A stretch of DNA of 64,000 nucleotides from Methanoculleus sp. (GTDB lineage Archaea; Halobacteriota; Methanomicrobia; Methanomicrobiales; Methanoculleaceae): the NCBI RefSeq assembly GCF_020696975.1, contig NZ_JAJGBK010000017.1:4804-68803 (forward strand), given 5' to 3'. Below are positions 26,216 through 46,037 of the stretch, piece after piece. Made by a program: the position numbers and the translations under genes. Positions within the stretch are counted from its first letter, which is position 1; the number at the start of each line of letters is the position of its first letter. The notes under the pieces are model-generated. The model did not search any database, had not been told where the DNA came from, and saw only the letters and a program-made list of their open reading frames with translations.

Positions 26216-26567
26216 GCAAGGAGTGGGAGGAGTAAGCCTCCTTCTGTTCTGTGCGGCATTCAGCTACGCGCCATACCTGGGCGGATACCAGACGATCCGT
26301 ATGCCCTATTCTGGCTTGCACCCGCAGGGGTTCACCGTTTCACCGTATCCCACCGCTACGTTCAACGAGTTATCGCGCGAAAGTTCGCGCTTCTCGCCTC
26401 CTTTACGGAGGCTCGGTCGTTTCATCACTGACGATGGGCCGTGTCGTTTCTGTGTCATTGCCGTGACTCTCGCCACCCGCACTTGCATGCGGCTGCGTGT
26501 CTGGCCGGTGGGAGGACTTTCCTCAGCAGCACAGGATGTGCCACCGTCGGCCGCACTCTCCCTCTCC
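26216..26567 (-). ncRNA. rnpB: RNase P RNA (archaeal type A)
   Basis: The minus strand carries universal motifs: GAGGAAAGUCC (CR-I; + strand ggactttcctc near 26513-26523), GGUGAAACGGUGAACC, GCAAGCC and ACAGAACAGAAGGAGGCUUAC (CR-IV/V; + strand gtaagcctccttctgttctgt near 26232-26252). The 5' GGAGAGGGAG and 3' CUCCUCCCACUCC ends can form P1. The end coordinates are approximate. Confidence 0.85.
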
Positions 26568-33063: not shown

Positions 33064-34402
33064 CCGGCCGGCTGACATCCGGGTCAAGGACTTCAGGGAG
33101 GTCGACTGCGGCCTCTCCGCCGACGAGGCTATCGCCGAAGCGGAGCGCTGCCTCCAGTGCAAGAAACCGCTCTGCGTCAGGGGCTGCCCGGTCGGCATCG
33201 ATATTCCCGCGTTTGTCCGCGAGGTTGCGGAGGGCAACTTCCCGGCAGCCGCACGGGCGCTCAAGGAACAGAACATGCTCCCCGCCATATGCGGGCGTGT
33301 CTGCCCGCAGGAGACCCAGTGCGAGGGCGTCTGCATCCTCGGCAACAAGGAGACCTCGATCCGGATCGGCGCGATCGAGCGGTTCGTGGCTGACTGGGAG
33401 CGGGGGAACGGCCCTGAGCTCCCTGAGGTGGCGAAGCCGACCGGGAAGCGTGTGGCGGTCGTGGGGTCCGGCCCGGCCGGGCTGACGGCCGCGGCCGAGC
33501 TCGCCCGTGCCGGCCACGCTGTCACGATCTTTGAGTCGCTCCACGAGGCCGGCGGTGTCCTGACCTACGGCATCCCTGCGTTCAGGCTCCCGAAGGATGT
33601 CGTCAGGGCGGAACTCGACCAGGTGCTCGCCCTCGGCGTCCGCTTAAAGAAGAACCATCTCGTGGGAAGGAGCGTCAGCGTGGACGAACTCCTCGGCTAC
33701 GACGCGGTCTTCCTCGCGACCGGCGCAGGGCTTCCCGCGTTCATGGGCATCCCCGGGGAGAACTTAAACGGTGTCTACTCAGCAAACGAATTCCTCACGA
33801 GGGTGAACCTGATGCACGCCGAGGCGTTCCCTGAGTTCGACACCCCGGTCCTGCATGGGGCGCGCGTCGCGGTGATCGGCGGCGGCAACGTCGCGATGGA
33901 CTCAGCCCGGGTGGCACGCCGCCTGGGTGCGAAGGTCTCGTTGATCTACCGGCGGGGTGAGGAAGAGATGCCGGCACGGAGGGCCGAGGTCGGGCACGCG
34001 AAGGAGGAGGGAATCGAGTTTTACACCTGCACGAACCCTACCCGGATCCTCGGCGAGCAGTGCTGCGTCACCGGTATCGAGTGCGTGAAGATGTCCCTCT
34101 GCGGCGTCGACGCGAGCGGCCGCCGGTCCCCGGAGCCGATCGAGGGGAGCGAGTTCATCCTCGACGTGGACATGGTCATCCAGGCGATCGGCACGAGCCC
34201 GAACCCGCTCCTCGTCTCCCTGATCCCGGGCCTCGAGCGCGGCCGGAGAGGCAACGTCGCCGTCGACAAGAACGGTCGGACGTCCATCCCCCACGTCTAC
34301 GCCGGCGGGGACATCGCCACCGGCGCCGCGACGGTGATCGAGGCGATGGGCTCGGCAAAACGCGCGGCGGCGGCGATCGGCGCGATGCTGAAAGAAGAGT
34401 AA
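33056..34402 (+). CDS. nfnB: NfnB/SudA/GltD-like NADPH-dependent oxidoreductase large subunit
   Basis: CLQCKKPLCVRGCPVGIDIP, ICGRVCPQETQCEGVC, VAVVGSGPAGLTAA, GGDIATGAATVI. The ATG at 33056 overlaps the nfnA stop. Confidence 0.9.
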   Translation: MSDRPADIRVKDFREVDCGLSADEAIAEAERCLQCKKPLCVRGCPVGIDIPAFVREVAEGNFPAAARALKEQNMLPAICGRVCPQETQCEGVCILGNKETSIRIGAIERFVADWERGNGPELPEVAKPTGKRVAVVGSGPAGLTAAAELARAGHAVTIFESLHEAGGVLTYGIPAFRLPKDVVRAELDQVLALGVRLKKNHLVGRSVSVDELLGYDAVFLATGAGLPAFMGIPGENLNGVYSANEFLTRVNLMHAEAFPEFDTPVLHGARVAVIGGGNVAMDSARVARRLGAKVSLIYRRGEEEMPARRAEVGHAKEEGIEFYTCTNPTRILGEQCCVTGIECVKMSLCGVDASGRRSPEPIEGSEFILDVDMVIQAIGTSPNPLLVSLIPGLERGRRGNVAVDKNGRTSIPHVYAGGDIATGAATVIEAMGSAKRAAAAIGAMLKEE

Positions 34403-34455
34403 ACTCATTTTTAGGGCGGGCCCGGAAGTTCTGCCCCGACAGAATCGGGTCCAGC
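34261..34455 (+). repeat. Direct repeat copy 1: 3' end of nfnB plus ~50 nt downstream
   Basis: Aligns collinearly with 37091-37275, by eye ~85% identical over the last 47 codons and stop. Similarity weakens after the stop. Confidence 0.75.
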
Positions 34456-34568
34456 CTATTCCCTACCTCGATGGTACGGGAAGTGCAGACCGGTCTCCTG
34501 CCTTCGGGCAGTCGCGCGGTGATTTTAACCGGCTTTTTGCAGGCACTGTGTGAAGGCAGGGGACCGGA

Positions 34569-35172: not shown

Positions 35173-36624
35173 TCATCCGATATAGAGCGCAAACTCGCTG
35201 ATCTCACCTTCATCTCCTTCATATGTATCCACAACTCTCAGTTGCCAATCGTGAATAGCTGCAAAACTTTCTGCTCGAACACTGAGTATCAGGTGATCTG
35301 CACTTCCACCCTGATTGTCCCAGATCTGATATTCAGCGTACTCGTCCCACGCCTCTTCCTTCCACCCAAGCCAGATATCCAGATCGGCTATGTAGGTATG
35401 GTCGATCAGGATTGTGAACAACATACTGTCGGAACAGGCAACGCCATTAATATGAGCATACGATGTCTGATAATCGGTTATCGGAACCGAACTTGACCCG
35501 GCTGTATCAGGAGATTCGGCCTTCGTCGAGTAAATGACCATTCCCATGGTCATCTTTTCCGTTTCTGATACGAGTATCCGTGTATAGTTGATGAGATTGG
35601 TATTTGTCCTCCAATTGAGATCGTAGTTCATAATCGTACAGATCGGCTCCAAATACTGATGAGACCATGCTGCAAAAGTTTTTGCATCTTCTGAGGGGTC
35701 GGTGATGATGTAGTAGGTATCAACGTCGGTTGCATCTTCAAACAAATCTCCCCAATTTGATCCCACCCATTCTTCGTAGTCCAGATGGTGTGCCTGTCCC
35801 ACTACACTCGACGTGTGGAACGGGCAGCCGAGATCCTCAATATAGTGTAGTCCTTTGCCAAGATTGATGTATGCAGAGTCAGAGTCATAGTTTGCGAAGT
35901 CGCTTTTTGCTGCATCTATATAGTACTCGCAGGAGTATGGTCCTAAATTGTCACCCGGTAGCGGGAAATCCCAGATATAAACCCAGGAGTGACGATTAAG
36001 CGTTCCAGGGGGTACAATCCCAATAGGCTCCTCGCGATGAACATCAGCCCAGCCGCTGTAATTCCGGAGTGTATCAGTATGTACAGAGGAGGTATACCCC
36101 AAATTCTCCCCGGCTGTCCCTGAAAAGTGCCAATGGCCCGGAGAGCCTGCCCATTTCGGACCGATGAACTCTCCTTCCGTCGCTTCGACCATAAGGTACG
36201 ATAGTTGCAGGAGAATCTCTTTCTCTTCTTCCTCAGAAAGCGATGATTCACCTTCAAAGATGCTTCGCACCGTATTTTCAAATTGTTTCCTATCATCCGG
36301 AAGACCCCGGAGGAGCTCCCTGACGAACGCCCAATCCTCTTCAGTCGGCTTTAGTTGCTTTGCTGGGATTTCTTTCCAATCTGAAGGGATCGCAATCCCG
36401 TGCAGCAATTTTTTGTCGGCCTCCACAATCGGAGAAACCGTAACAGAGTCTGGTTGTATCAATTCAAGTGACAGTTCCTGATCTAGGGTGCAGCCGTCGT
36501 TTGCGCCCGTTTTACCCGGAGAGTTTTTCACACAATTTGCACTCACAGCCGGCACCATCGTTCCGCTCACCAGCAGTGCAACGAGGAGCATGGAAAGTGC
36601 CCGCATTCCAATGGTTTCTTTCAT
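35173..36624 (-). CDS. Secreted zinc phospholipase C / P1-nuclease-superfamily-like hydrolase with C-terminal proprotein-convertase P-domain
   Basis: Sec signal MKETIGMRALSMLLVALLVSGTMVPAVSA. Zinc-ligand spacing H-x3-D-x5-H (HYIEDLGCPFH), then HH-x3-E, at 35773-35847. C-terminal P-domain-like DHTYIADLDIWL...WQLRVVD...GEISEFALYI. Confidence 0.7.
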   Translation of the reverse strand: MKETIGMRALSMLLVALLVSGTMVPAVSANCVKNSPGKTGANDGCTLDQELSLELIQPDSVTVSPIVEADKKLLHGIAIPSDWKEIPAKQLKPTEEDWAFVRELLRGLPDDRKQFENTVRSIFEGESSLSEEEEKEILLQLSYLMVEATEGEFIGPKWAGSPGHWHFSGTAGENLGYTSSVHTDTLRNYSGWADVHREEPIGIVPPGTLNRHSWVYIWDFPLPGDNLGPYSCEYYIDAAKSDFANYDSDSAYINLGKGLHYIEDLGCPFHTSSVVGQAHHLDYEEWVGSNWGDLFEDATDVDTYYIITDPSEDAKTFAAWSHQYLEPICTIMNYDLNWRTNTNLINYTRILVSETEKMTMGMVIYSTKAESPDTAGSSSVPITDYQTSYAHINGVACSDSMLFTILIDHTYIADLDIWLGWKEEAWDEYAEYQIWDNQGGSADHLILSVRAESFAAIHDWQLRVVDTYEGDEGEISEFALYIG

Positions 36625-36918
36625 CTGTTTGCCTCCTCTAACGTCCCCGGAGGCAAAGAGGCACAACCTTAATGTACATGGAATGCGAACCACTCTTTCG
36701 CCTTCGGGCAGCGGGGGGCTCATCCGGCCTTGGACGGATAGGGTGAGCCTCCACGGTTTTGCGAACGCTGTTTTGAGCATCCGCATAAGGGGATAGACCC
36801 GGGCCTATATAGCATTTCTCTCACAATCATCTACATGTCCTTTGGCTGTTCGTGAAAATGAGACGATCGATCCTGCGACGGGGAGCACGGACACAGGAGG
36901 ATGGCTGTTCTCGCGGCG
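36538..36918 (-). repeat. Cassette copy A: shared upstream region + TATA + ~155-nt 5' leader + signal-peptide codons
   Basis: Near-identical to 39499-39879 and 43243-43622 by direct alignment. Confidence 0.85.
36803..36840 (-). promoter_or_regulatory. Promoter A: TATA (CTATATAG) plus degenerate upstream box ACATGTAGA
   Basis: Position is equivalent to promoters B, C and D. It is the most diverged copy of the ACGTGTAAA box. Confidence 0.4.
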
Positions 36919-37061: not shown

Positions 37062-37232
37062 TGCGACGAATGGAACGTCCGGGACATCGTCATCGACAAG
37101 GACGGTCGGACGTCCATCCCCCGCGTCTACACCGGCGGGGACATCGCCACCGGCGCGGCGACAGTGATCGAGGCGATGGGTTCGGCGAAGAAGGCGGCCG
37201 CGGCGATCGACGCGATGCTCCGGGAAGAATAA
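37062..37232 (+). pseudogene. Orphan 3' fragment of an nfnB/gltD-like gene (last ~55 codons plus stop)
   Basis: Translates to ...IDKDGRTSIPRVYTGGDIATGAATVIEAMGSAKKAAAAIDAMLREE*, compared with nfnB VDKNGRTSIPHVYAGGDIATGAATVIEAMGSAKRAAAAIGAMLKEE*. There is no upstream coding continuation. Confidence 0.75.
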
Positions 37233-37275
37233 ATTTTTTTCGGATCGGCCCGGGGACAAGGCCGGGTCCAACCCG
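37091..37275 (+). repeat. Direct repeat copy 2 of the nfnB 3' end
   Basis: See 34261-34455. Confidence 0.75.
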
Positions 37276-37410: not shown

Positions 37411-38271
37411 CTATCTCCGCTTCCGGTACAGGACGAAACTCATCCCTACGCCAAAAGCCGCGAGGATCGTTCCGAACCCCGGCGTCGTCGTCCGGAGCGA
37501 CTGCCCGGGCGCCAGGTCCGAGGGGATCTGCACGACGTCCGTCTCCCGACCGGCCCGAACGGTGATCTCCCAGACTATCCGGTCGCTGTCGTAGACTTTC
37601 AGCACGACGTTCTCGACGCAGGCGCCCGGAGACTGCCCGGAGAGGACCTGCGCCTCCGCTTCGGCTCTCCCGACCGTGAGGTTCTCTTCCGAGATGTAGG
37701 TGGTGGAGACGATCTCTCCTCCCGAGAGGTCGACGATGTACTCCGTGAACACGCCGGTATCGTTGATGAAGTAGACCTGCGCCCGAGAAGGTTTGGACGT
37801 GATCTCCTCATAGCGGTTGGGGGATTGATTCTCGACGTACGACCGCACCCCGCCGTCGTTGCTGAGCGCCGGGTACTTCGCAAAAATCTTCGGGAAGGTG
37901 AGTTCCGCGGCCAGGGGCAGCGCCTCATCGCAGCCGATAATCCAGATTTGCCCGATGGACTGTTCGCCGCCGTGTTCATCGGCTCTAATCTTGTTTAAAT
38001 AGACGAGCTGTTCTTCGCAGGCGTTCGCCGGCACGATGTACACGTACTCATGCGTGTGGTTGTACGTGCTCTCATGCCACCAGATCTCCCCATGTTCAGC
38101 GATGAATGCGGTGATCGTCTCGTTGGTCTTCGCGTTCGGGTGAACCCCAAACAGAATTCCCGTCTGGTTTCCCTGCCCAGGGAGAGGCGTCACGACCGCA
38201 TCTGCGGGTATGCTGCAGACAAGCACCGCAAGGATGAGACCGAGCATCAGAAGGACAACGCTTTTCGACAT
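37411..38271 (-). CDS. Exported surface protein with PGF-CTERM archaeal sorting signal (possible PepSY-like module)
   Basis: N-terminal signal MSKSVVLLMLGLILAVLVCSIPADA. C-terminal TTPGFGTILAAFGVGMSFVLYRKRR (PGF + TM + basic tail). The segment RAEAEAQVL...VENVVLKVYDSDRIVWEITV looks PepSY-like by eye. Lies 10 nt downstream of the transglutaminase-like gene. Confidence 0.7.
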   Translation of the reverse strand: MSKSVVLLMLGLILAVLVCSIPADAVVTPLPGQGNQTGILFGVHPNAKTNETITAFIAEHGEIWWHESTYNHTHEYVYIVPANACEEQLVYLNKIRADEHGGEQSIGQIWIIGCDEALPLAAELTFPKIFAKYPALSNDGGVRSYVENQSPNRYEEITSKPSRAQVYFINDTGVFTEYIVDLSGGEIVSTTYISEENLTVGRAEAEAQVLSGQSPGACVENVVLKVYDSDRIVWEITVRAGRETDVVQIPSDLAPGQSLRTTTPGFGTILAAFGVGMSFVLYRKRR

Positions 38272-38280
38272 AAAAAAGGG

Positions 38281-39585
38281 TTAGTTATACCTCGGAACCT
38301 CTCCGAGGAGAATCTGCGTTCTGAAATCTTCGTACCTGAGAATGCCATCGCCGGTTGGGTCGTTCGGGTCCTGCGTGTAATAGGAGTCATCGGCGTCACC
38401 GTAGATGGTGATGTTGATGTGGTTGTTTCCCGCTGCCCTGTAAACCTGGGGATTGTCAAATACATCCCATGTTGGATCCGAGTGGATCCAGGCATTTCCA
38501 TTCCATGATTCTGCAATAGCATGCCCTGTTATATTACCGGAAGGCAGTTCCATGGTGAACGATAGGAATCGCGTCGGGATGCCCAGTGCGCGGGTGAAGG
38601 CGGTATACAGGGTCCCATACTCATCGCAGACCCCTTGATATTTTCCGTTTATGGGAGACGGATGGTCTAGGGTATACAGATCAGAAAATATATACTCAAC
38701 GTACATTGTTTCGTTATTATATTCCATCATATCATGAACCCGTTGCATTATTTCGTAGGCAGACTGATACGGCTCTGTCGTACCATCAGCTGCCTGCGCT
38801 GCTTCGAGTAACACCCTATATCCCTCACTGAATGGGAAATGATATAGATCACTTGTCTCGAGGTTTTCTCCGCCGTCAGGATCGAAGAGATGCGCCGCAT
38901 CGTTGTTATACTTTTCTATGGCATCGATCGGCATTCTTGCCATCCACGACGTAAGGCCGGTCGGATCAACTCTGATCTCGACTGCCATCGGTTTTATTCC
39001 GATGGAACTGTGCTGTGGGAGAACCTCGAATGGAACCGTCACAGTGAGGTCCGCTCCCGCTGCAAGATCCGAGAAGGGTACACCACACCCATACCCATCC
39101 TTAAGCGACCAGAGGATGACCATCCCGCTCGCTGCAGAAGAAGCATAGTTATGAATCGTGATCTCGTGGTAGACAAATGTGTCCTGTGTCCAGTACCAGG
39201 AGATAGTTCCCTGGGTCATCCTCACGTCCGGCATTAAATCCCTGGTGCCGAGGTCACTGCTCTCGGTTTGCAGCGTCAATGATACTTTACCGGGAGAGGT
39301 TGGAACTATGTCTGCATCGATTACCGGGAATTCTGATTCTCTCTTCGGATCTAGAATGATTACTCCGGGGTGCTGCCGTGCGATCTCCTCAGTGATCGGA
39401 ACCCTCTGCGGGGTTTCAATGACCGGAGTATACTTCGACATATCCCTTGGCTCAACCCACTGGTCGAACGTATCGAGCCAGCCCCTTGATTCATTCTCTG
39501 CACTCACCGCCGGCACCATCGTTCCGCTCACCAGCAATGCAGCGAGAAGCATGGAAAGTGCCCGCGGTCCAATTGTTTCTTTCAT
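38281..39585 (-). CDS. Secreted transglutaminase-like cysteine protease superfamily protein
   Basis: Signal MKETIGPRALSMLLAALLVSGTMVPAVSA. Core Cys-His-Asp motif GVCDEYGTLYTAFTRALGIPTRFL...GHAIAESW...WIHSDPTWD. Confidence 0.75.
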   Translation of the reverse strand: MKETIGPRALSMLLAALLVSGTMVPAVSAENESRGWLDTFDQWVEPRDMSKYTPVIETPQRVPITEEIARQHPGVIILDPKRESEFPVIDADIVPTSPGKVSLTLQTESSDLGTRDLMPDVRMTQGTISWYWTQDTFVYHEITIHNYASSAASGMVILWSLKDGYGCGVPFSDLAAGADLTVTVPFEVLPQHSSIGIKPMAVEIRVDPTGLTSWMARMPIDAIEKYNNDAAHLFDPDGGENLETSDLYHFPFSEGYRVLLEAAQAADGTTEPYQSAYEIMQRVHDMMEYNNETMYVEYIFSDLYTLDHPSPINGKYQGVCDEYGTLYTAFTRALGIPTRFLSFTMELPSGNITGHAIAESWNGNAWIHSDPTWDVFDNPQVYRAAGNNHINITIYGDADDSYYTQDPNDPTGDGILRYEDFRTQILLGEVPRYN

Positions 39586-39879
39586 CTGTTTGCCTCCTCT
39601 AACGTCCCCGGAGGCAAAGAGGCACAGTTCTTAAGTACAGGGAGTGCAAATCTATCTCTTGCCTTCGGGCAGTGGGGGGGCTCATCCGGTCTTGGACGGA
39701 TAGGGTGAGCCTCCACGGTTTTGCGAACGCTGTTTTGAGCATCCGCACAAGGAGATAGGCATCAAGCCATTTATGTTTTCTGTCCTTTTTCTTTACACGT
39801 CCATCGGCTGTTTGCGAAAATGAGGCATTCGGTCTCATCCTGAAGGATGCAGGTGCAGGAGAACGAATATTCTCGCGGC
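39499..39879 (-). repeat. Cassette copy B: shared upstream region + TATA + 5' leader + signal-peptide codons
   Basis: Direct alignment with copies A and C. Confidence 0.85.
39765..39802 (-). promoter_or_regulatory. Promoter B: GGACGTGTAAAGAAAAAGGACAGAAAACATAAATGG (box + TATA)
   Basis: The ACGTGTAAA box and GACAGAA half-site sit immediately upstream of a TATA-like element. The arrangement is shared with C and D. Confidence 0.45.
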
Positions 39880-39946: not shown

Positions 39947-40969
39947 CTATCCCCAGAAGAGCATCCAGACCCCGAATCCTATCAACAGGATCCCGCTTCC
40001 CGCTCGAATAACATCCCTGTACTCCCGTATCCTGCTTGACGAGGCATATCCCCCGAGGACTCCGACGCCGAAAAACGGCGTGAGCACCCCGGCTCCGAAG
40101 ACCAGCAGGAGCGATAGATCCTGCACAGTGCCGCCGATCAGGATTTTGTTCAACAGAATGAGGAGCATCGGTGCGGCACACGGAGCCTTGACGATCGAGA
40201 ACACCATGCCCAGAACGAACAACCCGGCAAGGGTGGTCGCGTGCTTCTGTATGGATGACTTAACGTAGTCGTCGGTGGAGATCGGGAGCCGTATCAACCC
40301 GAGCAGGTTCACCCCGGCGAGTATCGTGATCAGTCCCGCCGCGACGGTGAGGTACGGACCGAAGCCGCCGAGGGACATCCCCGCCAGCAGGAAGCAGCAT
40401 CCCATGACGATATACGCAGCGACCAGCCCCAGGCCGAATATCAACGAGTTCAGGAGACTGCTCCTCAGCCCGTTGCCCGACCCGGTGACGTAGGCCAGTA
40501 TGAATCCAAGGATTGCCATCAGGCAGGGCGAGAACCCGGAAAAAAGACCCAGGGAGTATGCAAGCGGAATGTCCCAGTTTATCGGCGGCGAGTTCTCCTG
40601 CAGCTCAGCGCCGGCAAGAGACCGCTCGATCGCCGCCCTGAGGTTCTCTTCGGTGATCTCCTCTTTGGGAATTGTGACGGTGCCGTCCACGACCACGGCC
40701 GGGATTTCGAGAAATTCGTATGCGTTCCATCGCTCCCACCCGTCTGGTGTATTGACGTCAATTTCTTCCACGTTCAAGGTGGAACCATAGGCCCCCTTCA
40801 GGTCGGCAATAATCGGATAGGTTAATTCGCACTCAGAACAGCGAGATGTATGAAAATATTCTACGTGAATAACAGATGCACCGGCGAGGGGGATTAACCC
40901 GATGAGGACCATCGCAACCGCGACGGCAACTATGTTATTCGTTAACCGGTGAATCATGAAATCAGCCAT
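39947..40969 (-). CDS. Thioredoxin-like (CxxC) domain fused to CcdA/DsbD-family thiol-disulfide membrane transporter
   Basis: N-terminal TM, then HTSRCSECELTYPII (CxxC). The CcdA core has conserved Cys in GFSPCLMAIL and VKAPCAAPML. Confidence 0.8.
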   Translation of the reverse strand: MADFMIHRLTNNIVAVAVAMVLIGLIPLAGASVIHVEYFHTSRCSECELTYPIIADLKGAYGSTLNVEEIDVNTPDGWERWNAYEFLEIPAVVVDGTVTIPKEEITEENLRAAIERSLAGAELQENSPPINWDIPLAYSLGLFSGFSPCLMAILGFILAYVTGSGNGLRSSLLNSLIFGLGLVAAYIVMGCCFLLAGMSLGGFGPYLTVAAGLITILAGVNLLGLIRLPISTDDYVKSSIQKHATTLAGLFVLGMVFSIVKAPCAAPMLLILLNKILIGGTVQDLSLLLVFGAGVLTPFFGVGVLGGYASSSRIREYRDVIRAGSGILLIGFGVWMLFWG

Positions 40970-41273
40970 TTGTTCGTGAATTCCCACCGGGGAAATACAC
41001 TCGAATCAGTATCTTCATGCCCGACGTATGCATCCGATTCCTTCAGAGAAGGTTCAATCGCAATGAAAATCACCCTTTAGGTGGTCATGGGAATTTTTTG
41101 GGGCGAAATAATGAATTGCCTGCTTGTCTGTTTTCGTACGTTTTCGCTGTGCTCATCGACAAACCAAGAGGTATAATCCGTCGATTACTATGTCTTGGTT
41201 CTCGTCCATGGCAGGAAATGAAGATAATCGACGATGCTTCCGTACCTTACACAGGAAAAAGGCACATGCGATT

Positions 41274-42011
41274 TCACGTTTTCTTGCCCCGGAGGACCAG
41301 CAATGCTCCTAATACCCCAATGATACCAGTATGAAGACCGAATCCCGGAACTTCCTGGCCTGACGGTTCCAATTCCAGGTCAAGTTCGTTCGTCAGATTT
41401 CCAAAGACAATCTTGCGCTGGAGGGGCTGGTAGCCCTCTTTCTGAACGATGATGGTCTGATCGTACCCGATCGCGTTTTCGATCAGATACCTGCCATCTC
41501 TTCCGGTTGTGTTTGTCACCGAGAAGATTTCATCATCCAGCGCAAATCTCATCTCAAATCTCACAGATGCATTGGGAATCGGGTTGCCTTCAGGGTCTGT
41601 CACCCTGCCCGAAACGGTGATCGCCGGCGGCGGAGGGATTCCAGTGTGCCTGGTCACGTTCAGAGTTTTTTCCGCTCGGTTTCCGAGGTTATCGGTCGCT
41701 ATGACCGTGATTCTGTTCTTCCCCGTAGAGACCGGCACGGAGCATGCGAACTTCGTCTCGTTCCCGCATGAAACCTCCCCTACCCCGCTTTGAACAACCA
41801 CGCTCCGTATGCCGGAAGGGGCATCGGCCTCGCCGATAACCACAACGTGAGGCGGAACGACATCGATCCAAACTTCATCACCGTCATTCGGGGAGATGAT
41901 TGTAAGATTTATCGGTTCCCCGATGGAAGCCGTATTTTCAGATGGAAGGCCCGAGCAGACTGCAGGATACGCGATAATCGCTAGTATGGCAACAATCAAA
42001 GATATGCGCAT
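41274..42011 (-). CDS. Exported Ig-like + carboxypeptidase-regulatory-like domain protein with PGF-CTERM anchor
   Basis: Signal MRISLIVAILAIIAYPAVCSG. ITVSGRVTDPEGNPIPNASV (CarboxypepD_reg-like). C-terminal EVPGFGLHTGIIGVLGALLVLRGKKT. Lies 19 nt downstream of the metalloprotease gene. Confidence 0.7.
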   Translation of the reverse strand: MRISLIVAILAIIAYPAVCSGLPSENTASIGEPINLTIISPNDGDEVWIDVVPPHVVVIGEADAPSGIRSVVVQSGVGEVSCGNETKFACSVPVSTGKNRITVIATDNLGNRAEKTLNVTRHTGIPPPPAITVSGRVTDPEGNPIPNASVRFEMRFALDDEIFSVTNTTGRDGRYLIENAIGYDQTIIVQKEGYQPLQRKIVFGNLTNELDLELEPSGQEVPGFGLHTGIIGVLGALLVLRGKKT

Positions 42012-42030
42012 TACCAATCCCGTCCAAAAA

Positions 42031-43329
42031 TTAGGCTGAGGGGCCCCACGGCGTGCCGTCGAGCGGGTCGAGAATTCCATCATTGTCATAATCGCCCCAA
42101 CCGATGAACCGCCTGCTGGATGTGCTTATCGTCGATGTTTTGTAAGGATCCCTCATAACACTGTTGGTTGACGAAGGGCACGAAACATGATTTGTATTTG
42201 TATACATATCGTGCATCGGGCTGACAGCAAGAATACTGGACTGTCCGCAGGAACTTGCTCCAGCATATTCGTCAAGGGCACCGTAGAGGTGCAATGATTC
42301 GTGTTCATAACTGCCAGGCTGCGAAGCGAATCTTCCGGATGATGATCTACCCCAGTATGAAATCGCAGTTTTATCTGCATAACCTTGGTCAGGACCCACC
42401 GCATAACCGCCCATGTCGTCATGTGTTAGGTAGAGAAGTATGACGGTATCTGCTCCGGACCAACTTTTTGCCGATCTCGCCATGTCATCTGTTGTTCTTC
42501 CATCGCCATTGCTGTCAGAGTAGCCAAGATTTCTTGCTGCTTCTTCCATCCATCCATTTACACCCCAGGCATGGATGTTATCGCCAGTATTTGCTCCAGA
42601 AACGGTTACAGTATAATAACCGCCATCGTTGACAGCGTTGGCACCCGAAGGCGCTTGTTGGCGAATTGCATTTGTTCCGGAATATGCATCACTCAATGCA
42701 TCATCTCGATCCGCCACGGTCCATGCTCCATCGCTGCTTTGGGTTTGGAAGTTAGTGATTAAATACAAATAGTACATTTTTCCATGTGCATAGGGTGCTG
42801 ACTGAGTGCCGGGAGGAATATAGTCCTGAATCCGGTTATCTGGCGCAAAGGTCCCGCCATGATAATTTTGATGATCTTTCACAAGCTGCTCTCTGTGTGA
42901 TCGGATAAATCGATCCGTCTCATCGGCATCAAACCCTAAAACGAGCCCTAGATCTTTCCCAAATTTGTCCAGGTCTGATATGTAATAGTAACGATGATCT
43001 ACATCATAATACCTGATCAACACCTGCTTTTCAAGAATTTGTGAGTATTCCTTGATCTCCTCTTCAGATATACCCCAATTCAACTTTTCATTCCAATAAC
43101 TCAGATAGACTACCGTATTATCGATGATCACTCCATCATCATGTTCCATGAGATGCAATGATTCCGCATCCGGCGGTACAAGCTGCTCCGGTACAGGCAC
43201 ATCAATGCCAATGATGTTTGTGTTTTCACTTTTTCCTTCGCTCGCACTCACTGCCGGCACAACACCCGCGCTCACCAGCAGTACGGCGAGGAGCGCGGAG
43301 AGTGCTCGCATTCCAATGGTTCCATTCAT
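42031..43329 (-). CDS. Secreted zinc metalloprotease (metzincin-like, HExxHxxGxxD)
   Basis: Signal MNGTIGMRALSALLAVLLVSAGVVPAVSA. HESLHLYGALD at 42271-42303. Downstream SVMRDPY is a Met-turn candidate. C-terminal DYDNDGILDPLD is a Ca-binding-like repeat. Confidence 0.7.
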   Translation of the reverse strand: MNGTIGMRALSALLAVLLVSAGVVPAVSASEGKSENTNIIGIDVPVPEQLVPPDAESLHLMEHDDGVIIDNTVVYLSYWNEKLNWGISEEEIKEYSQILEKQVLIRYYDVDHRYYYISDLDKFGKDLGLVLGFDADETDRFIRSHREQLVKDHQNYHGGTFAPDNRIQDYIPPGTQSAPYAHGKMYYLYLITNFQTQSSDGAWTVADRDDALSDAYSGTNAIRQQAPSGANAVNDGGYYTVTVSGANTGDNIHAWGVNGWMEEAARNLGYSDSNGDGRTTDDMARSAKSWSGADTVILLYLTHDDMGGYAVGPDQGYADKTAISYWGRSSSGRFASQPGSYEHESLHLYGALDEYAGASSCGQSSILAVSPMHDMYTNTNHVSCPSSTNSVMRDPYKTSTISTSSRRFIGWGDYDNDGILDPLDGTPWGPSA

Positions 43330-43622
43330 TTGTTTTTCCTCCTGTAATGTTCCCGGAGGCAGAAGAGGCACACCCTTAAGTACATGGAATGCGAACCACT
43401 CTTTCGCCTTCGGGCAGTAGGGGGTTCACCCGGCCTTGCACGGATGGGGTGAGCCTCCGCGGTTTTGCGAACGCTATTCCAAGCATCCACACAAGGACAT
43501 GGGCGTCGATCTATTTAGAAATTCTGTCAGATTCATTTACACGTTCGCGGATATTTGCCGAAAGTGAACGGAGAGAACCCTCCCCGGAAGACGAGGGCAC
43601 AGGAGAGAACCTATTCTCACGG
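43243..43622 (-). repeat. Cassette copy C: shared upstream region + TATA + 5' leader + signal-peptide codons
   Basis: Direct alignment with copies A and B. Confidence 0.85.
43510..43546 (-). promoter_or_regulatory. Promoter C: GAACGTGTAAATGAATCTGACAGAATTTCTAAATAG (box + TATA)
   Basis: Same box/half-site/TATA layout as B and D. Confidence 0.45.
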
Positions 43623-44613: not shown

Positions 44614-45387
44614 TCAGATACCGGTACCGGACACACGCCCCCCGGGGATCGCAGGCTTCCACGATCCGTGGGCTTGTACATACTCTTTCGCATCGGCGCA
44701 GAGATAGTAGCGTACGAACCGTCCTTTCTTCTCGTCTCTGACAATACTGTCCCGGAGCAGCGGTTTCATATGCCAGGTGACGTTCGCGCCCGACATCATG
44801 AGCCGGGACGCGATCTCTTTTCTCGTGCTTCCCGGATGTTGCAAAACGATATTGAGTATCCGACTCTTTGACTGCTCGTTGAGATATCCCGCCACCTTTC
44901 GTTCCAGATCGGGACAGGCGCCCGTGTCGGCGTAATATCTCATACCACTGCAGTTCGGCTCGGGGACGACCGTTCCCATCCTGCATAACATCTCTACGTG
45001 GTAGCGGAGGGTTCCGATATTCATCTCGAGCAACCGGGAGAGAGATCTTGTATTTATCCCCGGATTATCGCGTATGCACAGGTACGCTGCATTCCGGGTT
45101 TCGTTCTCAAGGACGTTATTTTGCAGGACCCTCTTATGGCCGAAATGCAGCCATGCGAGTAGCGAGAATACAAGCTGCATCGGGACAAAGAGCACCGGAA
45201 CGAATATGGATACGAGTCCGAGAATAACAATATCCAGGGGGATATTCCAGACGTACACCGGCATCGGATCCAAAGGCACCCTCTCCGGATATGCGTCCTG
45301 AACGATAGTAGCACATGCGGCAGACGGCAGCAGTGCGAGGCAGAGGATGGCCAGAGCGATTCCGGCAATCCGCACTCGCACGACCAT
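44614..45387 (-). CDS. Membrane-tethered transcriptional regulator with two winged-helix (ArsR/MarR-like) domains
   Basis: Signal/TM MVVRVRIAGIALAILCLALL plus a second TM VILGLVSIFVPVLFVPMQLVF. Then two wHTH-like units: NAAYLCIRDNPGINTRSLSRLLEMNIGTLRYHVEML and RILNIVLQHPGSTRKEIASRLMMSGANVTWHMKPL. TTTTTATT ~27 nt upstream of the ATG suggests a leaderless mRNA. Confidence 0.7.
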   Translation of the reverse strand: MVVRVRIAGIALAILCLALLPSAACATIVQDAYPERVPLDPMPVYVWNIPLDIVILGLVSIFVPVLFVPMQLVFSLLAWLHFGHKRVLQNNVLENETRNAAYLCIRDNPGINTRSLSRLLEMNIGTLRYHVEMLCRMGTVVPEPNCSGMRYYADTGACPDLERKVAGYLNEQSKSRILNIVLQHPGSTRKEIASRLMMSGANVTWHMKPLLRDSIVRDEKKGRFVRYYLCADAKEYVQAHGSWKPAIPGGRVSGTGI

Positions 45388-45470
45388 GGATTTATATAAA
45401 ATCGGTGTCAATAAAAAGATTTGGTTTGGTAGGTGTTCGGCTTTGTTGAAAGCGTGTGAGAGGTAATCAT

Positions 45471-46037
45471 TTAAGCATAAGCATTGCAATTCAAAATATA
45501 CGGAATGGTTTCTGTCACACTCTCTCCATACACTTCAATTCTCCAGGTACCTGATGCAGGGCTGCTTATATCTACGCGGATCCGTCCATCCAGACGTCCG
45601 CCATAATTGTCATGGTACGAACCATACAGGCCCCCATCCGGTCTGTAGATCTCCAATTCCAGGGAGTGGTCCGGGGTAAACCAGTTTAAGTCGACATTCA
45701 GTAAGGACATACCGGCTGGTACATTGAGCAGATGAGTATCAGTCTCCCCCTGTGTGATCGTAAAATACTCACGGGTTCCGTACCCGTCCGCCTGCGAGAG
45801 AAGTCCCGCGACTCCGTCATTTTCGTTTCCGATACCTGTAGCTGAAACCACCGGCACGATGAAGGCGACGACGGCCAGAAGCCTATAATGCGACTGATCT
45901 TCATCAGAATCTACCGATGAGACATCAGTAGACCTCCGTATAAAAATTCTGTCCAATTTCTTTACACGTTTTATATACGCAAGCATTACGTCGATCTCGG
46001 CGCGTGAAAGATCGCCCGAGCGTCTCCGGAATAGCAC
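45471..46037 (-). CDS. Membrane-anchored or secreted protein with pre-peptidase C-terminal (PPC)-like domain
   Basis: Hydrophobic segment YRLLAVVAFIVPVVSATG. PPC-like GETDTHLLNVPAGMSLLNVDLNW...LELEIYRPDG...GTWRIEVYG. The start is uncertain because cassette-type promoter D lies inside the 5' part of the ORF. Confidence 0.5.
   Translation of the reverse strand: MLFRRRSGDLSRAEIDVMLAYIKRVKKLDRIFIRRSTDVSSVDSDEDQSHYRLLAVVAFIVPVVSATGIGNENDGVAGLLSQADGYGTREYFTITQGETDTHLLNVPAGMSLLNVDLNWFTPDHSLELEIYRPDGGLYGSYHDNYGGRLDGRIRVDISSPASGTWRIEVYGESVTETIPYILNCNAYA
45937..45971 (-). promoter_or_regulatory. Promoter-like element D: AAACGTGTAAAGAAATTGGACAGAATTTTTATAC
   Basis: Best match to the B/C box + half-site + TATA layout, but located within ORF 45471-46037. 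Confidence 0.35.

What the first reader, a model, noticed from the sequence alone, without database searches (positions are those of the whole stretch)
39586..39745. Conserved ~155-nt 5' leader with an SD-sequestering hairpin and a covarying stem: candidate cis-regulatory RNA
The leader is found at 36625-36781 (A), 39586-39744 (B) and 43330-43488 (C). It is much longer than typical archaeal 5' UTRs and is more conserved than the flanking sequence.

In copies A and B, the last 30 nt before the AUG form a perfect 9-bp hairpin, UUUGCCUCC-N12-GGAGGCAAA (36628-36657 and 39589-39618). Its 3' arm contains the GGAGG Shine-Dalgarno sequence 7 nt from the AUG. Copy C keeps only a weakened version.

A second stem shows a compensatory change. 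A and C have GCGAA-N7-UUCGC (36685-36701 in A). B has GCAAG-N7-UUUGC (39646-39662). The third pair switches from G:C to A:U and the fifth from A:U to G.U.

Together these suggest a structured leader controlling translation or stability of the secreted hydrolases. It could be a riboswitch-like, thermosensor-like or protein-bound element. I cannot match it to an RNA family from memory.
Basis: partly seen in the sequence, partly recalled or inferred. Interest (0 to 1): 0.7.

Follow-up and report, generated by a model that had tools for sequence, protein, structure and literature searches.

The report
Structured mRNA leader for secreted proteins
Three secreted-protein genes in this Methanoculleus window share a folded mRNA leader of about 160 bases whose last hairpin hides the ribosome-binding site; it belongs to a promoter, leader and signal-peptide cassette found in front of about 15 unrelated secreted proteins in this genus, and it is a plausible but unproven translational control element.

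Summary
Three copies of a ~161-nt leader lie on the minus strand (A 36625-36784, B 39586-39746, C 43330-43490) and are 77-90% identical.

It runs from about 170 bp of promoter region through the leader to a 29-codon signal peptide. The signal-peptide coding region is as conserved as the leader. The mature proteins are unrelated.

I recovered 55 copies, all from Methanoculleus or unassigned metagenome contigs. They sit in arrays in front of about 15 unrelated secreted or lipoprotein families. No Rfam family matches.

Two 5' hairpins (P1 at the predicted transcript start, and P2) carry a few compensatory changes. The anti-SD/SD core is almost invariant. The anti-SD can also pair with an internal SD mimic (CCCGRAGGC), and the two states are predicted to be close in energy.

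Between orthologues the leader is less conserved than the coding sequence, and it is mosaic. Recombination therefore explains much of the similarity.

Verdict: a new family of a known kind, an SD-masking structured 5' UTR. The trigger is unknown and no transcript data exist. It is not a convincing riboswitch or thermometer.

The parts
39586..39746 (-). Leader copy B, the predicted 5' UTR of about 161 nt. The transcript start is predicted at G39746.
   Evidence: The start is inferred from the TATA-like box 22-25 nt upstream. It has not been mapped.
36625..36784 (-). Leader copy A.
   Evidence: covariance-model hit 36622-36785, 179.5 bits.
43330..43490 (-). Leader copy C.
   Evidence: covariance-model hit 43328-43491, 180.9 bits.
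39769..39776 (-). TATA-like box of copy B (ACATAAAT). The equivalents are about 36806-36813 in A and about 43511-43518 in C.
   Evidence: Read from the sequence. The spacing to P1 is conserved in related loci.
39793..39812 (-). Conserved upstream DNA box AACAGCC-N4-5-GGACRTGTA, a possible transcription-factor site. It lies at 36831-36850 in A and 43537-43556 in C.
   Evidence: Alignment A1. The box also occurs in divergent loci L045 and L047. That it binds a factor is inferred.
39722..39747 (-). P1, a 10-bp hairpin at the predicted 5' end (UGCGGAUGCU-CAAAAC-AGCGUUCGCA). A: 36760-36785. C: 43466-43491.
   Evidence: -13.2 kcal/mol, z -4.5. 5 of its 10 pairs show changes on both sides. L047 has a different hairpin sequence at the same positions.
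39679..39711 (-). P2, an irregular hairpin (GGCUCACCC ... GGAUGAGCC). A: 36717-36749. C: 43423-43455.
   Evidence: -15.7 kcal/mol. The outer pairs covary, for example C-G 17, U-A 7, U-G 3. The inner register is ambiguous.
39660..39671 (-). P3 hairpin UGCC-CGAA-GGCA. It contains the internal SD mimic CCCGAAGGC (X). A: 36699-36710. C: 43405-43416.
   Evidence: This is the most invariant block of the family. -4.7 kcal/mol. It is complementary to the anti-SD in 89.6% of cells, with no covariation.
39646..39662 (-). A: 36685-36701. C: 43391-43407.
   Evidence: 88% of cells paired. Third pair: A-U 19, G-C 17, G-U 3, broken 13. -2.2 kcal/mol, and it overlaps P3.
39623..39639 (-). P4b, a short hairpin UGUA-CUUAAGAAC-UGUG with a conserved CUUAAG loop.
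   Evidence: 94% of cells paired. Mostly wobble pairs that become Watson-Crick pairs in some copies.
39589..39618 (-). Alpha, the SD-sequestering hairpin UUUGCCUCC-N12-GGAGGCAAA. The SD is at 39593-39597. A: 36628-36657, with the SD at 36632-36636.
   Evidence: -15.7 kcal/mol. The SD is paired with probability 0.97-1.0 in A and B.
43338..43359 (-). Weaker alpha hairpin of copy C. Anti-SD CCUCC at 43355-43359, SD GGAGG at 43338-43342.
   Evidence: -8.9 kcal/mol.
39499..39585 (-). Signal-peptide coding part of the shared cassette (MKETIG.RALSMLL.ALLVSGTMVPAVSA). A: 36538-36624. C: 43243-43329.
   Evidence: (repeat family D3).
34474..34543 (-). Relic of the middle of a fourth leader (…CUGCCCGAAGGCAGGAG…CCCGUAC). 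No SD or ORF follows it.
   Evidence: nhmmer E = 8.8e-5. Repeat family D5. Sequence.

Best explanation
The element is the 5' untranslated region of a modular expression cassette. The cassette consists of an archaeal promoter with an upstream box, a ~161-nt structured leader and a Sec signal peptide. Methanoculleus has recombined this cassette onto many unrelated secreted-protein genes.

The RNA has two parts.
- A 5' domain with hairpin P1 at the first nucleotides of the transcript and the irregular hairpin P2. Its most likely role is to protect the mRNA from 5'-end-dependent decay, or to serve as a binding platform (inferred).
- A 3' expression platform in which the anti-SD UUUGCCUCCGGG pairs either with the true SD (hairpin alpha, ribosome-binding site masked) or with an internal SD mimic, CCCGRAGGCRA (helix gamma, ribosome-binding site free). 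The mimic is otherwise held in the small hairpin P3.

On this reading, translation depends on which partner captures the anti-SD. The signal that sets the balance is unknown. I consider a trans-acting protein or RNA, or co-transcriptional folding kinetics, more likely than a small ligand or temperature.

Shown: the repeats, their distribution, their pairing potential, limited covariation, and the alternative pairings. Inferred: the transcription start, the stabilising role and the switching.
For: - Three copies in the window and 55 copies in 34 loci, all Methanoculleus or unassigned metagenome contigs.
- Every intact downstream ORF starts with a signal peptide or lipobox. About 15 unrelated mature families follow.
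- The TATA-like box sits at constant spacing, so P1 begins at about +1 in all classes.
- Structure: 92% of cells paired against about 45% when slid. 12 pairs with double changes against 6.2+-1.4 in shuffles (0 of 500 shuffles reach it) on the fitted alignment. 8 against 5.4+-1.3 (20 of 500) on the MAFFT alignment.
- P1 is replaced position by position by another hairpin sequence in L047, and P2 pairs change C-G to U-A and A-U to G-C.
- The anti-SD and SD core are retained in about 50 of 52 copies. Changes in the anti-SD are wobble-compatible. Subtypes extend alpha in different directions: outward as UUUGC/GCAAA, inward as CCUCCGG/CUGGAGG or CCUCCG/CGGAGG.
- X is 89.6% complementary to the anti-SD.
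- In partition functions the anti-SD pairs with the SD in about half of the copies and with X in the other half. It never pairs with the upstream GGAGG.
- E(alpha) minus E(gamma) averages 0.0 with sd 5.9 kcal/mol when 30 nt of coding sequence are included.
- In the window, alpha dominates: A 0.99, B 0.76, C 0.96.
- Long 5' UTRs with predicted masking of the ribosome-binding site are documented in another methanogen (PMC5378194).
Against: - No transcript data exist. The transcription start and the 5' UTR itself are inferred.
- Between orthologues the leader (80-92% identity) is less conserved than the coding sequence (91-97%), and it is mosaic. Much of the similarity therefore reflects recombination rather than purifying selection.
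- Covariation rests on few, phylogenetically clustered changes, and it is only marginal on the unfitted alignment.
- Alpha and gamma show no covariation, because both strands are nearly invariant. SD conservation needs no structural explanation.
- With the leader alone, gamma (SD free) is favoured in 26 of 43 copies. SD masking is therefore not a uniform ground state.
- One natural copy (L020) lacks the anti-SD altogether, yet an ORF follows it.
Confidence: 0.45

Rival explanations
1. Passive cassette. The ~420-bp block (promoter, leader, signal peptide) is kept similar mainly by duplication, gene conversion and recombination among fast-evolving secreted-protein genes. The leader is at most a constitutive stabiliser or expression enhancer, and the SD hairpin has no switching role.
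For: - The leader and promoter are mosaic between orthologues. The coding sequence is 97% identical while the leader is 81% and the promoter 57%.
- The promoter type is swapped between strains that carry an identical B protein.
- Copies occur in arrays, together with relics, deletions and many truncated ORFs that keep only the signal peptide.
- The signal-peptide coding region is as conserved as the leader.
- Cassette A sits in a rearranged insertion that other strains lack.
Against: - Divergent classes about 65% identical (L045, L047, L049, and the L024/L038 type) keep hairpins at the same places with different sequences and some compensatory pairs.
- The anti-SD and the SD mimic are the most invariant non-SD blocks of the leader. 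A neutral spacer would not be expected to keep them.
Confidence: 0.27
2. Metabolite or ion riboswitch. P1, P2 and P3 form an aptamer, and ligand binding decides between alpha and gamma.
For: - The architecture is bipartite, with mutually exclusive pairings close in energy.
- Unpaired stretches are conserved: AAAACCG, ACUGCCCG and CUUAAG.
Against: - The P2 apical loop and internal loops, and the P1 sequence, differ between classes.
- No conserved multi-helix junction is evident.
- The regulated genes are heterogeneous secreted proteins with no shared metabolic or transport theme.
- No Rfam family matches.
- The distribution appears limited to one genus.
Confidence: 0.08
3. RNA thermometer. Hairpin alpha melts as temperature rises and frees the SD.
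For: An SD-masking hairpin is the defining feature of RNA thermometers. Methanoculleus species span mesophilic to thermophilic growth (own knowledge).
Against: - Predicted SD pairing stays at or above 0.96 from 25 to 65 C in all three window copies.
- The A and B hairpin is a perfect 9-bp GC-rich helix of -15.7 kcal/mol. Known thermometers use labile, mismatched helices.
Confidence: 0.05
4. DNA-level element. The conserved stretch downstream of the TATA box acts as an operator for a transcription factor, or as a recombination site, rather than as RNA.
For: - A double winged-helix regulator lies next to leader-bearing genes in three independent loci.
- A conserved DNA box lies upstream of the promoter.
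- Recombination breakpoints fall in or near P1.
Against: - Compensatory and wobble-type (G-U) changes are strand-specific and fit RNA pairing.
- The element always has the same orientation and a fixed distance to the start codon.
Confidence: 0.05

Closest known systems
Long 5' UTRs with predicted stem-loop masking of the ribosome-binding site in methanogens (Methanolobus psychrophilus dRNA-seq, PMC5378194; 5'-UTR processing that activates translation, PMC5499594)
   Same: Archaeal methanogen mRNAs with 5' UTRs above 150 nt. A stem-loop covers the SD. Stability and translation are proposed to be set post-transcriptionally.
   Different: Those are gene-specific UTRs defined by mapped 5' ends. 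This one is a single sequence family reused in front of about 15 unrelated genes within one genus, and its 5' end has not been mapped. No processing site is known here.
Bacterial SD-sequestering expression platforms (translational riboswitches, with a sequestor and an anti-sequestor helix)
   Same: The anti-SD pairs either with the SD or with an upstream competitor. The two states are mutually exclusive and close in predicted energy.
   Different: No conserved aptamer core, no ligand and no coherent regulon were found. The organism is an archaeon. The competitor is itself an SD mimic.
5'-terminal stabiliser hairpins of highly expressed envelope or secreted-protein mRNAs (E. coli ompA, B. subtilis aprE, S-layer gene leaders). 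From my own knowledge, not tested here.
   Same: A stable hairpin at or near +1 of a long leader in front of a gene for an exported protein.
   Different: The role here is inferred from position only. The archaeal decay enzymes differ (RNase J and aCPSF-type 5'-3' exonucleases).
Conserved 5' cassettes of variable surface-protein gene families (Mycoplasma vsp/vlp, Campylobacter fetus sap). From my own knowledge.
   Same: Several clustered genes share a highly similar 5' non-coding region and signal peptide, followed by unrelated or variable mature parts. Recombination between copies is evident.
   Different: Every copy here has its own promoter. No invertase or site-specific recombination site was seen. 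The mature proteins are unrelated families rather than variants of one protein.

Membership tests
Any Rfam 15 family | A covariance-model score at or above the family's gathering threshold | tested here: not met
   The whole window at gathering thresholds gives only RNaseP_arch at 26221-26566. A permissive scan of 36500-36900 gives only Fibro-purF at 15.4 bits against a threshold of 60, E = 0.62.
SD-masking structured 5' UTR (cis-regulatory leader) | A helix that pairs the SD with an upstream anti-SD, retained across homologues | tested here: met
   CCUCC/GGAGG is paired in 45-50 of 52 distinct copies, and the anti-SD variants are wobble-compatible. Pairing is predicted to dominate in the window copies but only in about half of the family.
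SD-masking structured 5' UTR (cis-regulatory leader) | The region is transcribed as part of the mRNA | not testable with these tools
   Only a TATA-like box 22-25 nt upstream of P1 supports this. No RNA-seq or 5'-end data were available.
Riboswitch | A conserved ligand-binding aptamer, with covarying stems around an invariant unpaired core | tested here: not met
   The loops of P2 and the sequence of P1 differ between classes, and no conserved junction is seen. Stem covariation is limited.
Riboswitch | Association with genes of one metabolic or transport pathway | tested here: not met
   The downstream genes include a transglutaminase-like protein, a subtilase, a DUF4367 lipoprotein, Cys-rich proteins and many proteins with no family. 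They share only export signals.
Riboswitch | An expression platform with mutually exclusive helices | tested here: met
   Alpha and gamma share the anti-SD, and their predicted energies are close across the family.
RNA thermometer | An SD helix that opens within the physiological temperature range | tested here: not met
   In silico the SD is paired with probability at or above 0.96 from 25 to 65 C in A, B and C. This was not tested experimentally.
5'-terminal mRNA stabiliser hairpin | A stable hairpin within a few nucleotides of the 5' end | tested here: inconclusive
   P1 (-13.2 kcal/mol, z -4.5) starts at the predicted +1 in all classes. The transcription start is inferred, not mapped.
Variable surface-protein 5' cassette (vsp/vlp/sap type) | Clustered genes that share the 5' non-coding region and signal peptide but have divergent mature parts | tested here: met
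   There are 2-3 copies per 8-14 kb in several loci.
Variable surface-protein 5' cassette (vsp/vlp/sap type) | A site-specific recombinase, or promoter inversion, that switches which copy is expressed | not tested
   Every copy has its own promoter-like region. I did not search for a recombinase. DDE transposases lie near some copies.

The most novel reading that the evidence does not exclude
The leader is a true bistable riboregulator dedicated to the Methanoculleus secretome. A cellular signal, such as a secretion or envelope-stress factor, a regulatory protein or an sRNA, stabilises P3 and the 5' domain, or instead helix gamma. This sets whether the SD of a whole set of exported proteins is exposed. 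It would be the first regulon-wide, secretion-linked translational RNA switch described in Archaea.
Probability: 0.15. Interest if true: 0.75.

Novelty: new member of a known kind. Interest (0 to 1): 0.5.

Why it matters
Curated cis-regulatory RNA families from Archaea are few. This one has about 55 examples, a definable structure and a clear gene association: exported proteins only. That makes it a ready candidate for an Rfam entry and for experiments on translational control in methanogens.

The cassette also shows how one genus spreads a ready-made expression and secretion module across unrelated genes. It could serve as a secretion and expression tool for methanogen engineering.

If the alpha/gamma alternative is a real switch, it would link post-transcriptional control to the archaeal secretome.

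Tried and rejected
- Upstream ORF or leader peptide. The frame is open into the coding sequence only in copy A. Stops fall at different places in B and C. Copies differ by 1-2-nt indels, and the GGAUGC AUG is absent from the GCGGAGGC and GCGGAAGC variants. Rejected.
- Long-range pairing of the upstream CCGYGGAGGC with the anti-SD (beta). RNAalifold proposed it on 22 close copies, but its partition-function probability is about 0 in all copies. That upstream segment was also fixed by my search pattern.
- Alternative middle hairpin GAGUG/CAUUC (P4ii). 75% of cells paired, no better than shuffles. Unsupported.
- Leader-to-coding-sequence pairing (CGCAUUCC with codons 5-8, GGAAUGCG). It is predicted in only about half of the copies, at varying positions. 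Not pursued.
- Signal-peptide profile search. It returned only short ORFs of 30-75 aa. These were useful as entry points to divergent loci, but they are not a census of the regulon.
- Function of proteins A and C. No match in Pfam, NCBIfam or PDB sequences.
- Literature. Four full-text searches found no description of this element in Methanoculleus.
- CCTCC-N4-20-GGAGG count in the window. 16 matches against 4.5 expected, but most lie elsewhere, so the count says little about this leader.

Full report
**1. The observation**

On the minus strand three genes start at 36624 (A, 483 aa), 39585 (B, 434 aa) and 43329 (C, 432 aa). The ~300 nt around each start align well, with 85% mean column identity.

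A 29-nt core of the leader occurs exactly three times in the window, against 0 expected. A covariance model later found only these three copies.

Pairwise identities:

| Region | A/B | A/C | B/C |
|---|---|---|---|
| Leader | 90% | 82% | 77% |
| First 87 nt of coding sequence | 92% | 79% | 75% |
| Upstream -170..-1 | 57% | 52% | 54% |

There is no similarity further upstream or in the mature proteins.

The three proteins share only the signal peptide MKETIG(M/P)RALSMLL.ALLVSGTMVPAVSA, or MNGTIGMRALSALLAVLLVSAGVVPAVSA in C.

The conserved block is promoter region plus leader plus signal peptide, and the leader is not more conserved than the signal-peptide coding part.

**2. Transcript start**

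A TATA-like box (ACATAAAT in B at 39769-39776, CTATATA in A, CTAAATA in C) lies 22-25 nt upstream of the first G of a strong hairpin, P1. The same spacing recurs in divergent relatives.

From the usual archaeal geometry (own knowledge: TATA centred near -26/-27), the transcript should start at about G36784, G39746 and G43490. That gives a 5' UTR of about 161 nt. This is inference, because no RNA data were available.

A UTR of this length is not exceptional for methanogens. In Methanolobus psychrophilus 24% of 5' UTRs exceed 150 nt, and stem-loops masking ribosome-binding sites were predicted there (PMC5378194).

**3. Distribution**

A 19-base pattern from the leader found 7 loci in species-representative genomes. 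Six are named Methanoculleus (M. formosensis, M. methanifontis, M. sediminis and three MAGs) and one is a 'Methanobacteriota archaeon' MAG. There were also 3 hits in bacterial records, of which two are chance matches and L009 is a true leader copy on a short contig binned as Spirochaetaceae. The same pattern found 22 metagenome stretches, about 18 of them true.

A profile of the signal peptide led to more divergent loci, including Candidatus M. thermohydrogenotrophicum.

nhmmer and a covariance model then found 55 copies in 34 held loci, often 2-3 per 8-14 kb.

Every intact downstream ORF begins with a signal peptide or a lipobox. The mature parts fall into about 15 unrelated groups. These include a transglutaminase-like protein (B), a subtilase, a DUF4367 lipoprotein and 243-254-aa proteins with Cys-rich C-termini. 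Most match no family. Several copies are followed by truncated ORFs.

No Rfam family matches. Four literature searches found no prior description.

**4. Conservation against recombination**

For orthologous genes in different genomes, the coding sequence is 91-97% identical. The leader is only 80-92% identical and the promoter 52-92%. Nothing aligns beyond -110.

Strains that encode an identical B protein carry different promoter types or a replaced 5' arm of P1.

The 5' domain class, the middle segment type and the 3' end type occur in many combinations.

In the window, cassette A lies in a segment that other strains lack. It is flanked by a 157-nt duplicate of the 3' end of a neighbouring gene, and there is a leader relic at 34474-34543.

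The cassette is therefore spread and homogenised by recombination. High similarity alone is not evidence of RNA function.

**5. Structure**

Single-sequence folds give z-scores of -2.0, -3.0 and -3.6 for A, B and C.

Local hairpin energies:

| Element | Energy (kcal/mol) |
|---|---|
| P1 | -13.2 |
| P2 | -15.7 |
| P3 | -4.7 |
| Alpha in B | -15.7 |
| Alpha in C | -8.9 |

On the model-fitted alignment of 52 distinct copies, my structure (P1, P2, P3, P4b, alpha) is 92.3% paired, against 43-52% when the 3' partners are slid. It has 12 pairs with changes on both sides. Shuffles give 6.2+-1.4 (0 of 500 reach 12) and slid versions give 2-6.

On a plain MAFFT alignment of 29 copies the figures are 92.1% paired and 8 pairs with changes on both sides, against 5.4+-1.3 in shuffles (20 of 500 reach 8).

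The informative changes are these:
- P1 in L047 is GGAUACCG-GGAC-CGGUAUCC, matching position for position with two double changes.
- L045 and L049 carry another hairpin at that site.
- P2 position 3 is C-G, C.A or U-A.
- P2 position 6 changes from A-U to G-C in L039.

The inner register of P2 is ambiguous, with two alternatives at 87% and 94% paired.

I read this as real but modest covariation support for P1 and the outer part of P2.

**6.

The SD hairpin core, CCUCC/GGAGG, is nearly invariant, so it carries no covariation signal. The fourth pair, which makes the perfect 9-bp helix of A and B, is G-C in only 10 of 52 copies.

Other subtypes lengthen the hairpin differently, as CCUCCGG/CUGGAGG, CCUCCG/CGGAGG or UUU/AAA. 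I take this as soft support that masking is selected.

The second stem is 88% paired. Its third pair is A-U in 19, G-C in 17, G-U in 3 and broken in 13. It is weak, and it shares nucleotides with P3.

**7. An alternative partner for the anti-SD**

The most invariant block outside the SD region is CUGCCCGRAGGC. It can form P3. It is also complementary to UUUGCCUCCGGG over 12 positions, forming helix gamma: 89.6% of cells pair, and there is no covariation because both sides are fixed.

In partition functions the anti-SD pairs with the SD in about half of the copies and with this SD mimic in the other half. It never pairs with the upstream GGAGG.

E(alpha) minus E(gamma) averages 0.0+-5.9 kcal/mol with 30 nt of coding sequence and +3.4+-5.4 without it.

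In the window alpha wins: A 0.99, B 0.76, C 0.96. It stays formed from 25 to 65 C.

The topology is therefore that of a sequestor/anti-sequestor platform. Whether it switches, and in response to what, is unknown.

**8. What I conclude**

The best-supported reading is a structured 5' UTR that is part of a recombining expression and secretion cassette. It has a 5'-terminal hairpin domain (stability or a binding platform, inferred) and an SD-masking platform with an internal competitor (translation gating, inferred).

A purely passive cassette remains a serious rival.

A riboswitch is unlikely. The 5' domain varies and the regulon is heterogeneous.

A thermometer is unlikely, because the helix is predicted to be stable.

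Transcriptional control is probably layered on top. A conserved DNA box lies 45-65 bp upstream of the predicted start. A double winged-helix regulator with a PPC-domain neighbour sits next to leader-bearing genes in the window, and the regulator recurs in two divergent loci, with the PPC-domain neighbour in one of them.

**9. Novelty**

The kind is known: a long structured leader that masks the SD, as in bacteria and as predicted in methanogens. The family is not catalogued. Its reuse in front of many unrelated exported proteins within one genus is unusual. I rate it a new member of a known kind, of moderate interest.

Noticed in passing
window 26221-26566 (-): Archaeal RNase P RNA (RF00373, 209 bits). 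It was the only Rfam match in the window at gathering threshold.
   Followed up: no
window 34474-34543 (-): Relic of the middle part of a fourth leader (CUGCCCGAAGGCAGGAG…CCCGUAC). It lies downstream of a 221-aa membrane-protein ORF, and no SD or ORF follows it.
   Followed up: partly
window 34254-34410 and 37084-37240: A 157-nt direct duplication at 85% identity. The 3' end of the Fer4_20/Pyr_redox gene is copied next to cassette A. Strains L002-L006 go straight from the gene after B to that oxidoreductase, so cassette A and its neighbours are an insertion or rearrangement.
   Followed up: partly
window 44614-45489 (-) and 45471-46037 (-); L045 2330-3638; L047 1259-1954: A double winged-helix regulator (HTH_HVO_0163_N + HTH_24, apparently with N-terminal membrane segments) and a small PPC-domain protein lie just upstream of cassette C. 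The regulator recurs next to divergent leader-bearing genes in L045 and L047, and the PPC-domain protein recurs in L045. It is a candidate regulator of the cassette promoters.
   Followed up: partly
window 36831-36850, 39793-39812, 43537-43556 (-): A conserved DNA box, AACAGCC-N4-5-GGACRTGTA, lies about 45-65 bp upstream of the predicted transcription start. It is also present in the divergent loci L045 and L047, and it may be a transcription-factor site.
   Followed up: no
window 37411-38271 (-) and 41274-42089 (-): The genes immediately downstream of B and C overlap or abut them, so they are probably in operons. The one after B has a PGF-CTERM match. The one after C is a CarboxypepD_reg/Big_1 protein with a similar PGF-type C-terminus. 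This points to archaeosortase-processed surface proteins. A DsbD-like membrane protein follows at 39947-40987.
   Followed up: partly
L022 11021-11186, L024 7815-7983, L025 2387-2552, L031 3854-4019, L038 4766-4933 (leader positions; the proteins lie downstream): Leader-driven proteins of 243-254 aa whose last ~75 residues are hydrophobic and very Cys-rich. They match no Pfam family. Their build (a long N-terminal part followed by a Cys-rich tail) recalls secreted peptide-toxin precursors, but I did not test this.
   Followed up: no
P0003, P0005, P0008, P0014; L018 4301, L021, L031 570, L042-L049: Many cassettes are followed by ORFs that end soon after the signal peptide. Often a longer ORF follows in another frame. 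Some of these truncated ORFs recur on tens to more than 100 contigs, so they are real pseudogenes or frameshifted genes, not sequencing errors.
   Followed up: partly
L020 2549-2679; L042 3853-4004; L005 2841-3003: Three natural leader variants. L020 lacks P4b and the anti-SD, so the SD directly follows CUUAAG. L042 lost the 3' arm of P1 through a deletion between CAAAACGGC repeats. L005 has the 5' arm of P1 replaced. They could serve as natural mutants for expression tests.
   Followed up: no
window 36680-36690 with 36601-36612 (copy A), and equivalents: The leader segment CGCAUUCC is complementary to codons 5-8 of the shared signal peptide (GGAAUGCG). The minimum-free-energy fold of copy A uses this pairing. 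Across the family it is predicted in only about half of the copies, at varying positions.
   Followed up: partly
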